Shown here one piece after another: positions 43,428 to 62,625 of a stretch of 64,000 nucleotides of DNA; within the stretch, counting starts at the first letter, position 1; every line of letters begins with the position of its first letter. A program made the position numbers and the translations under genes. Below the pieces are notes generated by a model, which saw only the letters and a program-made list of their open reading frames with translations, searched no databases and had not been told where the DNA came from. This stretch comes from an uncultured Clostridia bacterium (GTDB taxonomy: Bacteria; Bacillota; Clostridia; Christensenellales; UBA1242), in the NCBI GenBank assembly GCA_944345705.1, contig CALVML010000004.1, positions 16,965-80,964 of the forward strand, read 5' to 3'.

Positions 43428-43484
43428 TTCGAACCGCATGGCGTAAATATAATAGAATTTTTAAAAACAAAGTCGCACTAAATG
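43428..43484 (+). repeat. 57-nt conserved block, copy 1; inverted partner at 62409-62465
   Basis: Hand alignment gives 44/57 identical, with the last 24 nt at 23/24 (ttaaaaacaaWgtcgcactaaatg). It contains TATAAT at 43448-43453. Confidence 0.7.
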
Positions 43485-43680
43485 CTTTAACTAAGGGTAC
43501 CCGCAAAATCAAAGATTTTGTGGGAAAGGAGCAAACGAGCGTAACCGCGTAAAATTACAAGGTAATTTTCGCCTAAGCGTAGTTTGTGACGCGGTTTGGT
43601 CGCGAAAACACCCAAAAAATGCAGGCATTTTCAGGTAACCCACGAACCCAGGGGTTCGATTCCCCATACTCACATAATAA
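43460..43680 (+). ncRNA. Candidate structured non-coding RNA ending in a tRNA-Glu T-arm copy; family unknown
   Basis: No credible ORF. An 11-bp hairpin at 43500-43524 has a G-U pair only on the plus strand. Hairpin 43551-43569. Helix 43544-43550/43589-43595. 17-nt T-arm copy at 43649-43665, then terminator 43682-43720. Possible -10 at 43448-43453. Confidence 0.35.
43649..43665 (+). repeat. Inverted 17-nt copy of the tRNA-Glu T-arm
   Basis: caggggttcgattcccc on plus equals the sense T-arm of the minus-strand tRNA-Glu (its complement is at 43735-43751). The arms are 69 nt apart. Confidence 0.9.
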
Positions 43681-43681
43681 A

Positions 43682-43720
43682 AAAACTAGAAACTCGATAA
43701 TATATCAAATTTCTAGTTTT
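43682..43720. terminator. Bidirectional terminator between the ncRNA candidate and tRNA-Glu
   Basis: aaaactagaaa (43682-43692) / tttctagtttt (43710-43720). Confidence 0.7.
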
Positions 43721-43722
43721 GC

Positions 43723-43797
43723 TGGTAGCCTCAAGGGGAATCGAACCCCTGATTCCGCCGTGAGAGGGCGGCGTCTTAACCGCTTGACCATGAGGCC
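43723..43797 (-). tRNA. tRNA-Glu (anticodon CUC), CCA encoded
   Basis: The reverse complement folds as a cloverleaf: GGCCTCA acceptor, anticodon stem CCGCC/GGCGG with loop CTCTCAC, T-arm AGGGGTTCGATTCCCCT, then ...GAGGCTACCA. Confidence 0.9.
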
Positions 43798-44104
43798 ATG
43801 TTAAACCTTAATTAATATATCATATTATCTTTGATTTTGCAATCTTTTTTGAAAATTTTTTCTTAATTTTTATTTTGCGTTTATCTAAATTTTGTTTATA
43901 ATCTAATTATATAAAAATATTAAAATAGTTTTATGGAAAATAATATTTTAATACTTTTTATTTTCTATTGAATGTTTAACAAATATTTTTAGGTATATTC
44001 ACATAGTTAATATGTCAAAAAATACTACAAATTCTATATATTTATATATAAAACCATCAATGTGAAATTGTCACGCTTAGTTTTGATAATATAGTGGAGG
44101 AGTA

Positions 44105-50700: not shown

Positions 50701-50745
50701 AAATTAAATTAAAATAAAATAATAAAAAAATAGGTTTAAAAATAA

Positions 50746-50779
50746 AAAATGCAATATTTTTTTATTTATTGCATTTTTT
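50746..50779. terminator. Bidirectional terminator
   Basis: aaaatgcaat (50746-50755) / attgcatttt (50768-50777). Confidence 0.6.
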
Positions 50780-50787
50780 ATTTAATC

Positions 50788-62133: not shown

Positions 62134-62219
62134 GCTGGTGTGGCGAAATGGCAGACGCAAGGGACTCAAAATCCCTCGAAGGCAACTTCATGTGGGTTCG
62201 ACTCCCACCACCAGCACCA
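62134..62219 (+). tRNA. tRNA-Leu (anticodon CAA), long variable arm, CCA encoded
   Basis: GCTGGTG acceptor pairs with CACCAGC. Anticodon stem AGGGA/TCCCT with loop CTCAAAA. Variable arm present. T-arm GTGGGTTCGACTCCCAC. Confidence 0.9.
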
Positions 62220-62277
62220 GCAAACTTAGTTTGCATCACTATATAATAAAATTTGAATAATATTAAAATAAGAAAAG

Positions 62278-62295
62278 GGGAGTCGAACCCACATG
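62278..62295 (-). repeat. Inverted 18-nt copy of the tRNA-Leu T-arm
   Basis: gggagtcgaacccacatg is the exact reverse complement of catgtgggttcgactccc in tRNA-Leu (62189-62206). The arms are 71 nt apart. Confidence 0.9.
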
Positions 62296-62331
62296 GGAAA
62301 GGTTTGCACCATCAGTAACAAAGAAAAAACT

Positions 62332-62388
62332 GCGCTTCTGCCTAGGTAATGCTTTCCGCGTGCCGTATAGGCGGGGCGCTTGTTTTTT
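62332..62388 (+). terminator. GC-rich intrinsic terminator
   Basis: A 10-bp stem with one bulge and a T-run. It stands out in an AT-rich intergenic region. Confidence 0.55.
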
Positions 62389-62408
62389 CACACTAATTTC
62401 ATATAGTA

Positions 62409-62465
62409 CATTTAGTGCGACATTGTTTTTAACAATTACATTGAGGCTACGCCAAACAGTTCGGA
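62409..62465 (-). repeat. 57-nt conserved block, copy 2; inverted partner of 43428-43484
   Basis: The reverse complement tccgaactgtttggcgtagcctcaatgtaattgttaaaaacaatgtcgcactaaatg aligns 44/57 with copy 1. Confidence 0.7.
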
Positions 62466-62625
62466 TTTGTTATTTTTCATAGTTAAACGTAACTAGCGAT
62501 TTACTTTAAGTGTCGCATATTGTTTGGAAAATTCTAGTAAATATCTATCTATAACGAAAATTTAATAAAAAAACAATACAAAGTAAGTTTTTTATGATAT
62601 AATTAAACTATTAAGGAGTTTTAAA

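What the first reader, a model, noticed from the sequence alone, without database searches (positions are those of the whole stretch)
62134..62465. Second instance: an 18-nt perfect inverted copy of the tRNA-Leu T-arm lies 71 nt downstream, inside a terminated trailer
Seen in the sequence: gggagtcgaacccacatg (62278-62295) is the exact reverse complement of catgtgggttcgactccc in tRNA-Leu (62189-62206). The spacing (71 nt) is almost the same as at tRNA-Glu (69 nt), although the two T-arm sequences differ. The first convincing terminator after tRNA-Leu is the GC-rich hairpin at 62332-62388. Its G-U pairs favour plus-strand transcription. The tRNA-Leu primary transcript may therefore include a segment able to form an 18-bp duplex with its own T-arm. 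Inference: two independent tRNAs each have a matched copy at a conserved distance. That argues for a templated or selected feature rather than coincidence. Candidate roles are control of precursor tRNA processing or stability, a guide-like RNA, or a footprint of a tRNA-homing element. The strand assignment conflicts with the 57-nt block homology (next finding), so the true transcript structure is unresolved.
Basis: partly seen in the sequence, partly recalled or inferred. Interest (0 to 1): 0.7.

Follow-up and report, generated by a model that had tools for sequence, protein, structure and literature searches.

The report
Inverted T-arm copy: tRNA-homing element scar
The exact backwards copy of part of the tRNA-Leu gene is real and not chance; it is the end piece of small gene-less mobile DNA elements that pile up behind two tRNA genes in this chicken-gut bacterium, and in one set of samples the 71 bases between the two copies appear flipped, which would break the tRNA gene.

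Summary
62189-62206 and 62278-62295 are a perfect 18-nt inverted repeat, and the tRNA-Glu pair is a perfect 17-nt one. These are the two longest spaced G+C-containing inverted repeats in the window. No shuffle gave arms of 17 nt or more.

The copy is not an isolated motif. It is a recurrent end module of small non-coding elements stacked at the 3' ends of tRNA-Leu(CAA) and tRNA-Glu(CTC). The module is an inverted T-arm copy, a short linker, then a direct copy of the tRNA 3' end.
- Another strain of the species carries three such modules, with two exact 17-nt copies of the tRNA-Leu 3' end.
- A related species has an imperfect (14/17) Glu version with an 18-nt direct repeat.
- Three other related species have nothing there.
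- In the window, a decayed 3'-end copy (62300-62315) follows the inverted copy.

The RNA-duplex and guide-RNA ideas are not supported.

New here: four runs of one study carry both junctions of a flipped 71-nt spacer at depths comparable to the reference form. A flipped junction was also seen at the Glu locus in one of these runs. Six other distinct runs and all 10 assemblies that span both arms show only the reference orientation. This is therefore a local inversion polymorphism or a library artefact.

The parts
62134..62219 (+). tRNA-Leu(CAA) gene
   Evidence: ARAGORN; Rfam tRNA, 58.5 bits
62189..62206 (+). Inverted-repeat arm 1: CATGTGGGTTCGACTCCC, inside tRNA-Leu (end of the variable region, 5' T-stem strand, T-loop, 3 nt of the 3' T-stem strand)
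62207..62277 (.). 71-nt spacer. It holds the last 13 nt of tRNA-Leu (rest of the T-stem, acceptor 3' strand, CCA), a small hairpin GCAAACTTAGTTTGC and an A+T-rich stretch. This is the segment seen in both orientations in runs X19-X22.
   Evidence: Both flipped junctions are present (left flank + arm + CTTTTCTTATTT; GGTGCTGGTGGT + arm + right flank). ARAGORN no longer finds tRNA-Leu in the flipped sequence.
62278..62295 (+). Inverted-repeat arm 2: GGGAGTCGAACCCACATG, the exact reverse complement of arm 1. It is the 'anti-T-arm' part of the element end module.
   Evidence: The same module occurs three times in strain L032 (positions 622, 1013, 1153).
62300..62315 (+). Decayed direct copy of the tRNA-Leu 3' end: AGGTTTGCACCATCAG against AGGTTCCCACCACCAG of the intact units. 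Read as an old attachment-site core.
   Evidence: 13 of 16 identical; 2 of 2000 shuffles score as well. In a read-through RNA it pairs with the tRNA acceptor 5' strand.
62322..62394 (.). G+C-rich hairpin between an A-run and a T-run (terminator-like on both strands). It resembles the terminators that follow each tRNA 3'-end copy in stacked units. Copies about 92% alike exist elsewhere.
   Evidence: paralogous contigs whose likeness ends at 62389
62409..62465 (.). Block shared with the tRNA-Glu locus (23 of 24 in CATTTAGTGCGACWTTGTTTTTAA), ending in a T-loop-like GTTCGG. It includes TTGAGGCTAC (62441-62450), which equals the tRNA-Glu 3' acceptor end.
43723..43797 (-). tRNA-Glu(CTC) gene, with arm 43735-43751 in its T-arm
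43666..43734 (.). 69-nt spacer of the Glu locus (tRNA 3' end plus a strong terminator at 43720-43682). A flipped junction was seen in run X20.
43649..43665 (+). Inverted copy of the tRNA-Glu T-arm (reads CAGGGGTTCGATTCCCC on the + strand)
43428..43648 (.). Body of the Glu-side element. It contains hairpin modules and a multi-copy core (43514-43590, 7-15 times the genome's depth). A copy 86% alike sits in the tRNA-Leu array of strain L032.

Best explanation
The inverted T-arm copy is a built-in end module of small, gene-less elements. These elements insert by site-specific recombination into the 3' end of tRNA-Leu(CAA) and tRNA-Glu(CTC) and stack there.

Each unit starts with a replacement tRNA 3' end and a terminator. 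It ends with an inverted copy of the target's T-arm, a short linker and a (pseudo) T-arm/3'-end copy. In the free form of the element, the attachment site would therefore read: anti-T-arm, linker, tRNA 3' end.

In the window, tRNA-Leu is followed by:
- one minimal unit: a 58-nt trailer plus the anti-T-arm;
- a decayed old 3'-end copy;
- an older unit: terminator hairpin, body and shared block.

The copy matches its neighbour because it derives from, or is kept identical to, the element's own target tRNA. It is not there because the tRNA transcript needs it.

As a side effect, the tRNA's T-arm and the copy form a close inverted repeat. Recombination or template switching across this repeat can flip the roughly 70-bp segment that carries the tRNA 3' end, which inactivates the tRNA gene.

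Shown: the module architecture, the direct repeats, presence/absence among strains and species, and flipped junction sequences in one study.
Inferred: integrase-type insertion by a recombinase acting in trans, the reason the module contains an inverted T-arm, and that the flip happens in vivo.
For: - The inverted repeats are far beyond chance.
- The Leu and Glu elements are homologous along their length and share a 57-nt block.
- Strain L032 of the same species reads: tRNA-Leu, terminator, anti-T-arm (1 mismatch), linker and hairpin, an exact 17-nt copy of the tRNA 3' end (TCCCACCACCAGCACCA), a 391-nt unit whose body is 86% identical over 186 nt to the window's Glu-side body, anti-T-arm, hairpin, a second exact 17-nt copy, then the window's spacer, anti-T-arm and Leu-side body.
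- The same array junction is seen in runs X27 and X35.
- A related species has the Glu version (AAGGAATCTAACCCCTG, 14/17). In two of its three loci there is an extra unit bounded by an exact 18-nt copy of the tRNA-Glu 3' end.
- Three other related species with the same tRNA-Glu/patatin synteny lack the module.
- The window keeps a decayed 3'-end copy directly after the anti-T-arm (13/16; 2 of 2000 shuffles).
- The Glu-side core is multi-copy at the genome's own depth, and long contigs end in it.
- In strain L036 an island has replaced the 5' part of tRNA-Leu, so the site is an integration hot spot.
- For the flip, runs X19-X22 hold all four predicted 42-nt junction contigs. Contigs break exactly at the arm edges. 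Flipped junctions are as deep as or deeper than the reference junction specific to this organism (X19: 6 and 5 against 3.3; X21: about 6 against 2.1). A Glu-locus flipped junction occurs in X20.
- The concept of decayed, att-flanked elements without recombination genes that accrete at tRNA 3' ends is described in PMC5704250.
Against: - No recombinase gene was found in the window, and the rest of the genome could not be searched.
- No free or excised form and no empty site within the species was seen.
- Known integrative elements are not described as carrying an inverted T-arm copy in the arm of their attachment site, so the role of that part is unexplained.
- Stacked units could in principle arise by local duplication and recombination rather than by insertion.
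- The flip is seen only in the four runs of one study. It is absent from 6 distinct runs of other studies, one of them at depth 37 and one at 24.5, and from the 10 assemblies that span both arms.
- In the flip-positive runs, spacer and junction contigs are about twice as deep as the right flank. This would fit fold-back or chimera artefacts at an 18-bp inverted repeat.
- My control repeat was not covered in those runs.
Confidence: 0.62

Rival explanations
1. Local inverted duplication kept identical by concerted evolution. A piece of each tRNA's 3' region was duplicated in inverted orientation by replication template switching or fold-back repair. Repeated switching between the close arms keeps 17-18 nt identical and occasionally flips the spacer. 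No mobile element is involved.
For: - Weak residual likeness continues beyond the arms on the variable-region side (GCAAACCTTTCCCATG against GGCAACTTCATG; CGAACCCAGGGG against CGGAATCAGGGG) (read).
- The copy is imperfect (14/17) in a related species but perfect at both loci here, as expected if homogenisation is active here.
- Flipped spacers are seen.
Against: - It does not explain the exact direct copies of the tRNA 3' end that bound units of different content.
- It does not explain the shared element bodies at two different tRNAs, or the multi-copy body.
- It may still be the process that keeps the arms identical, so it is partly compatible with the best explanation.
Confidence: 0.17
2. 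RNA-level regulator. The tRNA-Leu primary transcript runs through the anti-T-arm to the terminator at about 62390. The 18-20-bp duplex with its own T-arm then delays or controls processing or stability of the precursor.
For: - No terminator lies between tRNA-Leu and the copy, and the first terminator-like site is 62367-62393.
- The predicted fold of 62134-62395 pairs the T-arm with the copy: -94.7 kcal/mol, z-score -6.6.
Against: - At tRNA-Glu a strong terminator precedes the copy.
- In strain L032 a terminator directly follows tRNA-Leu.
- Related species with the same tRNAs lack the copy.
- No RNA contig covers 62229-62302 in four metatranscriptomes.
- The low fold energy follows trivially from the repeat itself.
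Confidence: 0.1
3. A convergent non-coding RNA gene (tmRNA-like, Y-RNA-like or another tRNA mimic) that ends in a T-arm mimic. On this reading the shared block is its 5' part.
For: - On the opposite strand the elements end in a T-arm hairpin, and their two ends can pair.
- The Glu-side fold has a z-score of -3.1.
- One hairpin shows compensatory changes between copies: CCCGCAAAATC/GATTTTGTGGG against CCCTAAAAATC/GATTTTTAGGG (loose ends).
Against: - No Rfam family matches even at E-values up to 10.
- ARAGORN finds no tmRNA or tRNA there in either orientation.
- There is no acceptor stem and no promoter-like site in that direction.
- The Leu-side fold is no better than shuffles: z-score 0.11.
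- Identity to the neighbouring tRNA is not needed for any known T-arm reader.
Confidence: 0.05
4. The flipped junctions are a library artefact. Strand switching at the 18-bp inverted repeat during amplification or library preparation in one study gave the flipped sequences, and the DNA never inverts in cells. This rival concerns only the inversion, not the origin of the copy.
For: - The flip is seen only in the four runs of study P12.
- It is absent from 6 distinct runs of other studies and from the 10 assemblies that span both arms.
- Spacer and junction contigs are over-represented relative to the right flank.
Against: - Flipped junctions equal or exceed the reference junction (about 3:1 in X21), which is far above usual chimera rates.
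- In X19, a divergent variant of the Glu locus (9 differences in 168 nt; whether its arms are intact is unknown) is one unbroken contig while the Leu locus is split.
- Both junctions appear at similar depth, as a true inversion predicts.
Confidence: 0.35

Closest known systems
CIMEs (cis-mobilizable elements) and accretion of integrative elements at tRNA 3' ends (reviewed in PMC5704250)
   Same: - The elements have lost, or never had, integration and transfer genes but keep attachment-site repeats.
- They sit at the 3' end of a tRNA gene.
- They stack in tandem, each unit bounded by a direct copy of the tRNA 3' end.
   Different: - The units here are only about 75-400 nt with no genes at all.
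- They carry an inverted copy of the target's T-arm next to the direct 3'-end copy, which is not a described feature of CIMEs.
- Mobilisation by a helper recombinase is not shown.
Integrase-driven inversion between inverted att or tRNA-derived sites (Thermococcus pTN3 integrase, PMC5495485)
   Same: Sequences derived from the attachment site of a tRNA-targeting element, lying in inverted orientation, serve as arms for DNA inversion.
   Different: - There the inversions span large chromosome segments, and the enzyme is identified and was tested in vitro.
- Here the segment is about 70 bp, it includes the tRNA's own 3' end, no enzyme is known, and the inversion rests on contigs from one study.
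Invertons: short invertible segments flanked by inverted repeats in gut bacteria (PhaseFinder survey, Jiang et al. 2019; from my own knowledge)
   Same: Inverted repeats of 10-30 bp flank a short segment found in both orientations within a metagenome.
   Different: - Known invertons mostly flip promoters, are usually longer than 100 bp, and lie next to an invertase gene.
- Here the flipped part is the 3' end of a tRNA gene, and no invertase gene is nearby.
Folded single-strand attachment sites (CTX phage attP, integron attC; from my own knowledge)
   Same: Two inverted copies of a target-like sequence, a short distance apart, could fold into a hairpin that imitates the double-stranded target site. 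The anti-T-arm/linker/T-arm layout of the module would allow this.
   Different: This is purely a resemblance of layout. There is no evidence for a single-stranded stage, for Xer or IntI-type enzymes, or for the extrahelical bases that define attC.
Delocalised homing crRNA of type V-K CRISPR-associated transposons (Saito et al. 2021; from my own knowledge)
   Same: A match of about 17 nt to a tRNA gene, carried by an element that sits some tens of bases downstream of that tRNA.
   Different: - There are no Cas12k or Tn7-like genes, no repeat next to the match and no transposon ends.
- The units are bounded by direct copies of the tRNA 3' end, as in recombinase-type insertion.

Membership tests
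Att-flanked decayed integrative element at a tRNA 3' end (CIME-like) | Direct repeats of the tRNA 3' end bound the element | tested here: met
   - L032 has two exact 17-nt copies of TCCCACCACCAGCACCA at 687 and 1078, besides the tRNA's own 3' end.
- L023 and L024 have an exact 18-nt copy of TTCCCCTTGAGGCTACCA.
- The window has only a decayed copy at 62300-62315 (13/16; 2 of 2000 shuffles).

Att-flanked decayed integrative element at a tRNA 3' end (CIME-like) | Present or absent, and in variable number, among strains and related species at the same tRNA | tested here: met
   - Within the species there are one-unit, 75-nt-spacer and three-module forms.
- At tRNA-Glu the module is perfect here, 14/17 in one related species and absent in three others.
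Att-flanked decayed integrative element at a tRNA 3' end (CIME-like) | No integration or transfer genes of its own | tested here: met
   The units are 75-400 nt. Only short ORFs overlap them, without conserved reading frames. None of the 15 window ORFs scanned matched a recombinase family in Pfam.
Att-flanked decayed integrative element at a tRNA 3' end (CIME-like) | Derived from, or moved by, an element with a site-specific recombinase of matching specificity | not testable with these tools
No phage or plasmid record resembles the element.
Inverton (phase-variable invertible DNA) | Inverted repeats flank the segment | tested here: met
   Perfect arms of 18 and 17 nt with spacers of 71 and 69 nt
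Inverton (phase-variable invertible DNA) | Both orientations are found in DNA of one population | tested here: inconclusive
   Both are present in X19-X22, all from one study. Only the reference form appears in 6 distinct runs of other studies and in the 10 assemblies that span both arms. Only contigs were available, not raw reads, and the control repeat was not covered.
Inverton (phase-variable invertible DNA) | A dedicated invertase gene is nearby | tested here: not met
   No recombinase family in the window ORFs scanned. The rest of the genome was not searchable.
tmRNA or another tRNA-like RNA gene on the opposite strand | Acceptor stem plus T-arm, and a match to the family model | tested here: not met
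   ARAGORN finds nothing in either orientation of the spacer. Rfam finds nothing at E-values up to 10. No acceptor pairing is present in the reference orientation.
T-box or other tRNA-sensing leader | Match to the family model, and a regulated gene downstream | tested here: not met
   No Rfam match
MITE (miniature inverted-repeat transposable element) | Terminal inverted repeats plus a target-site duplication | tested here: not met
   The two element ends are T-loop-like and partly complementary, but no target-site duplication is seen at either locus (read). The units are instead bounded by copies of the tRNA 3' end.
CRISPR-associated transposon homing guide | CRISPR repeat next to the match, plus Cas12k/Tn7-like genes and transposon ends | tested here: not met
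   None of these are in the window. The matching segment has no repeat-like flank shared between the Leu and Glu loci.

The most novel reading that the evidence does not exclude
The T-arm inverted repeat is a working DNA switch. A tRNA-homing mini-element supplies an inverted T-arm, so that the 70-bp cassette holding the tRNA's 3' end can flip. This would reversibly turn off tRNA-Leu(CAA) and tRNA-Glu(CTC). Both have C at position 34 and read only G-ending codons, which U34 isoacceptors can usually also read. That would be phase variation of tRNA supply. A related possibility is that the anti-T-arm/linker/T-arm module is a folded hairpin attachment site imitating the duplex T-arm of the target gene.
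Probability: 0.15. Interest if true: 0.8.

Novelty: new variant of a known kind. Interest (0 to 1): 0.48.

Why it matters
The matched copies at two tRNAs looked like a guide or a regulator. They turn out to be signatures of very small gene-less elements that home to tRNA 3' ends and stack there.

If confirmed, three points would be of interest:
- An attachment-site architecture with an inverted T-arm next to the direct 3'-end copy has not been described. It could reveal how the responsible recombinase reads the tRNA gene.
- Such elements plant a close inverted repeat inside an essential class of genes. If the flip is real, it inactivates the tRNA and would be a new way for mobile DNA to modulate or erode tRNA gene sets in reduced genomes.
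- For annotation and assembly, these modules explain contig breaks and spurious ORFs next to tRNAs in these uncultured gut Clostridia.

Tried and rejected
**Closed or exhausted tools**
The requested survey of all tRNA genes of the genome was therefore not possible.

**Searches that found no relatives of the element**
- The block pattern AAAAACAANGTCGCACTAAAT in GTDB genomes gave one chance hit inside a coding region.
- The same block in JGI metagenomes and IMG/VR gave only chance hits in coding DNA.
- blastn against phage and plasmid records found nothing relevant.
- The pattern GGGAGTCGAACCCACRTGG in viral contigs hit only the antisense strand of ordinary phage tRNA genes.
- Homologues of the downstream hydrolase gene gave loci without conserved synteny and without inverted T-arm copies at their tRNAs.

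**Ideas tested and dropped**
- tmRNA. The block resembles the region before a tmRNA resume codon, and a T-arm lies at the 3' end. But ARAGORN and Rfam find nothing, there is no acceptor stem, and the Leu copy has no stop codon in the would-be tag.
- Decayed inverted whole-tRNA copy. Local alignment of element bodies to the tRNA loci gave only short A+T-rich or 14-nt matches.
- A new tRNA or tmRNA formed by the flip. ARAGORN finds none.
- A promoter for a convergent RNA. None was found.

**Control that failed**
- The control inverted repeat (50740-50783), meant to test for library artefacts, was not covered in the four positive runs and was uninformative.
Full report
**1. The observation**

tRNA-Leu(CAA) lies at 62134-62219 (+) (ARAGORN; Rfam). 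The repeat finder reports 62189-62206 (CATGTGGGTTCGACTCCC) and 62278-62295 as an 18-nt, 100% complementary inverted repeat with 71 nt between the arms.

The arm inside the tRNA covers the last three bases before the T-stem, the 5' T-stem strand, the T-loop and three bases of the 3' T-stem strand. Identity stops before the acceptor stem.

The tRNA-Glu(CTC) gene (43723-43797, minus strand) has the same arrangement: 17 nt, with 69 nt between the arms (43649-43665 and 43735-43751).

In a scan for perfect inverted repeats with spacers of 10-400 nt, these two pairs rank first and second in the window. In 40 block-wise shuffles the longest arm was 15 nt.

**2. What surrounds it in the window**

- The regions beyond the two copies are homologous. 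They share a block with 23 of 24 identical bases, and there is weaker likeness in between.
- No Rfam family matches either region on either strand, even at E-values up to 10.
- ARAGORN finds no tmRNA or extra tRNA.
- Consensus scans find the tRNA promoters, a strong terminator directly after tRNA-Glu (43720-43682), and a terminator-like hairpin at 62367-62393 after the Leu-side copy. They find no promoter for a convergent RNA.
- The Leu-side region does not fold better than shuffles on the opposite strand (z-score 0.11). The Glu-side region does (z-score -3.1).
- None of the 15 window ORFs scanned matches a recombinase family.

**3. Relatives**

Pattern scans of genome, metagenome and viral collections, and blastn against phages and plasmids, gave only chance matches. 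Useful material came from contigs that encode the neighbouring proteins.

*(a) The same species, tRNA-Leu locus: ten assemblies*
- Four have the window's form.
- Four have a 75-nt spacer variant with intact arms.
- L036 has an island that replaces the 5' part of tRNA-Leu.
- L032 carries a stack, in this order:
  1. tRNA-Leu and a terminator;
  2. an anti-T-arm with one mismatch;
  3. the linker GGTGAGACAC;
  4. a T-loop-like GGGTTC interrupted by the hairpin CCTGAAAATGCTTGTATTTTTAGG;
  5. an exact 17-nt copy of the tRNA 3' end (TCCCACCACCAGCACCA);
  6. a 391-nt unit whose body is 86% identical over 186 nt to the window's Glu-side body;
  7. a second anti-T-arm, linker and hairpin;
  8. a second exact 17-nt copy;
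  9. the window's 58-nt trailer, anti-T-arm and Leu-side body.
- Runs X27 and X35 show the same junction (…TTTTTAGGGTGAGGT before 62203).

*(b) The window itself*

Directly after the anti-T-arm comes AGGTTTGCACCATCAG (62300-62315). It matches AGGTTCCCACCACCAG of the intact units at 13 of 16 positions, and only 2 of 2000 shuffles score as well. I read it as a decayed copy of the tRNA 3' end. The G+C-rich terminator hairpin that follows corresponds to the terminators that follow each 3'-end copy in L032.

*(c) The orthologous tRNA-Glu(CTC)/patatin locus in five related species*
- One species (patatin protein 83% identical) has AAGGAATCTAACCCCTG (14/17) about 88 nt downstream. It is followed by the same GGTTCGTGGGTT and a hairpin. 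In two of its three loci there is an extra unit bounded by an exact 18-nt copy of the tRNA-Glu 3' end.
- Three other species have no inverted or direct copy at all.
- The genes between rpoC and tRNA-Glu differ in every species, so this flank is a variable, island-prone site.

*(d) Copy number*

The Glu-side core (43514-43590) has 7-15 times the depth of the surrounding genome in four metagenomes. It is carried by several contigs of the same depth as the host genome, and long contigs end in it. The body is therefore a dispersed multi-copy sequence. Earlier notes on this genome describe dispersed structured repeats and a tRNA-Arg islet with 21-nt direct repeats 160 bp apart and no integrase. I did not test those notes.

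**4. Interpretation**

The repeating order is: tRNA 3'-end copy, terminator or body, anti-T-arm, linker, next 3'-end copy. This is what successive site-specific insertions into the 3' end of a tRNA gene produce. Each incoming unit supplies a new 3' end and terminator and pushes the old 3' end downstream.

Elements that keep attachment-site repeats but have no recombination genes, and that accrete at tRNA 3' ends, are known as CIMEs (PMC5704250). The units here are an extreme, gene-less version.

What is unusual is that the end of each unit contains an inverted copy of the target's T-arm next to the direct 3'-end copy. In the free form the attachment site would read anti-T-arm, linker, tRNA 3' end.

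The same body type is found with Leu-specific ends at tRNA-Leu and Glu-specific ends at tRNA-Glu. The Leu-side block also contains TTGAGGCTAC, the tRNA-Glu 3' end. The tRNA-specific parts are therefore exchangeable modules tied to the target.

Why the inverted copy is there is not shown. It could be an extra recombinase-binding site, a folded hairpin site, or a product of template switching.

The copy is perfect at both loci here and in all same-species assemblies that carry both arms, but 14/17 in a related species. This suggests ongoing homogenisation between the close arms.

**5. The flip**

Logan contigs (31-letter words) of runs X19-X21 break exactly at the arm edges: …-62206, 62189-62295 and 62278-….

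A focused lay on X19-X22 shows all four 42-nt junction contigs:
- the two reference junctions;
- left flank + arm + CTTTTCTTATTT, where the added letters are the reverse complement of 62266-62277;
- GGTGCTGGTGGT + arm + right flank, where the added letters are the reverse complement of 62207-62218.

These are exactly the junctions of an inverted spacer. Depths of the flipped junctions are 6 and 5 against 3.3 for the organism-specific reference junction in X19, 9.25 and 6 against 11.7 in X20, and about 6 against 2.1 in X21. A flipped junction of the Glu locus is present in X20 at depth 7, against 6.4 for the reference.

In the flipped sequence ARAGORN no longer finds tRNA-Leu or tRNA-Glu, and no new tRNA or tmRNA appears.

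Against a real inversion:
- Runs from other studies (X24, X26, X28/X29, X40, X27, X30, X35; depths up to 37) give one unbroken contig in the reference orientation. The listing warns that rows of equal size may be one data set filed twice; X28 and X29 gave identical contigs and I count them once.
- The eight Leu-locus and two Glu-locus assemblies that span both arms are all in the reference orientation.
- In the positive runs, spacer and junction contigs are about twice as deep as the right flank.
- My control repeat was not covered in those runs.

For a real inversion:
- The flipped share is far above usual chimera rates.
- In X19, a divergent variant of the Glu locus (9 differences in 168 nt) is one unbroken contig while the Leu locus is split. 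Whether that variant's arms are intact could not be determined.

I put the odds that the inversion is real in those samples at about 60-65%.

Integrases of tRNA-targeting elements are known to invert DNA between inverted attachment sites (PMC5495485).

**6.

A read-through tRNA-Leu transcript would indeed pair its T-arm with the copy, and its acceptor 5' strand with the decayed 3'-end copy (-94.7 kcal/mol, z-score -6.6).

Several results argue against a selected RNA function:
- At tRNA-Glu, and in strain L032, a terminator precedes the copy.
- Related species do without the copy.
- No RNA contig covers 62229-62302 in four metatranscriptomes (contigs show presence, not absence).

A local effect on tRNA-Leu maturation remains possible.

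**7. Verdict**

- The copy is best read as part of the end module of gene-less tRNA-homing elements stacked at tRNA-Leu(CAA) and tRNA-Glu(CTC) (confidence about 0.6).
- It is a new variant of a known kind (att-flanked decayed integrative elements). The unexplained feature is the inverted T-arm.
- One consequence is possible but unproven: inversion that breaks the tRNA gene.

Noticed in passing
window 43514-43590 (also 62334-62357): The core of the Glu-side element has 7-15 times the genome's depth in four chicken-gut metagenomes. Several 5-18-kb contigs of the same depth end in it. It is therefore a dispersed multi-copy sequence of this genome. Its other locations could not be looked up.
   Followed up: partly
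loose ends at window 62145/62146 in runs X9 and X23: Some contigs carry a tRNA-Leu-like gene whose D-loop is interrupted by about 38 nt (TCCAGGTTCCCTGAAAATCGTTAGATTTTTAGGGTGTA). This is the same small hairpin module that interrupts the pseudo T-arms in the stacked units. The hairpin seems to be a mobile unit of its own, able to land inside tRNA sequences. One of the runs is a metatranscriptome.
   Followed up: no
L036:1020-1153 (same species, other strain): The 5' part of tRNA-Leu is replaced by other DNA. The retained 3' part is fused to a stretch with a TAA anticodon loop (CGGGACTTAAAATCCCG), and ARAGORN calls no tRNA. An island with two ORFs that have no Pfam family lies upstream. This looks like a second kind of element using the same tRNA-Leu site.
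   Followed up: partly
L032:494-579: The tRNA-Leu at the head of the three-module stack differs from the window's gene at six positions, all changed to C. These include the universal U33 and a T-stem base. It is either a damaged gene or an assembly or sequencing fault.
   Followed up: no
window 62441-62450: TTGAGGCTAC, identical to the 3' acceptor end of tRNA-Glu, lies in the shared block of the element next to tRNA-Leu, in the same strand sense as tRNA-Leu. It is possibly a remnant of a Glu-type attachment core. By my rough estimate, the chance of such a 10-mer match is about 0.03.
   Followed up: partly
window 43503-43516 and 43827-43840: A 14-nt perfect inverted repeat, GCAAAATCAAAGAT, links a hairpin of the Glu-side element with the -35 region of the tRNA-Glu promoter, 310 nt apart.
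   Followed up: no
L069:1638-1662 (IMG/VR contig, 56% G+C): The hairpin CCCACAAAATCTTTGATTTTGCGGG, flanked by GGTTCC…GGGAACC, occurs unchanged in an intergenic region of a high-G+C viral contig. The hairpin module is therefore not confined to this A+T-rich clade.
   Followed up: no
window 62506-62525: AAGTGTCGCATATTGTTTGG resembles the shared block motif AGTGCGACATTGTTTTT. It may be a third, partial copy, lying before the hydrolase gene.
   Followed up: no
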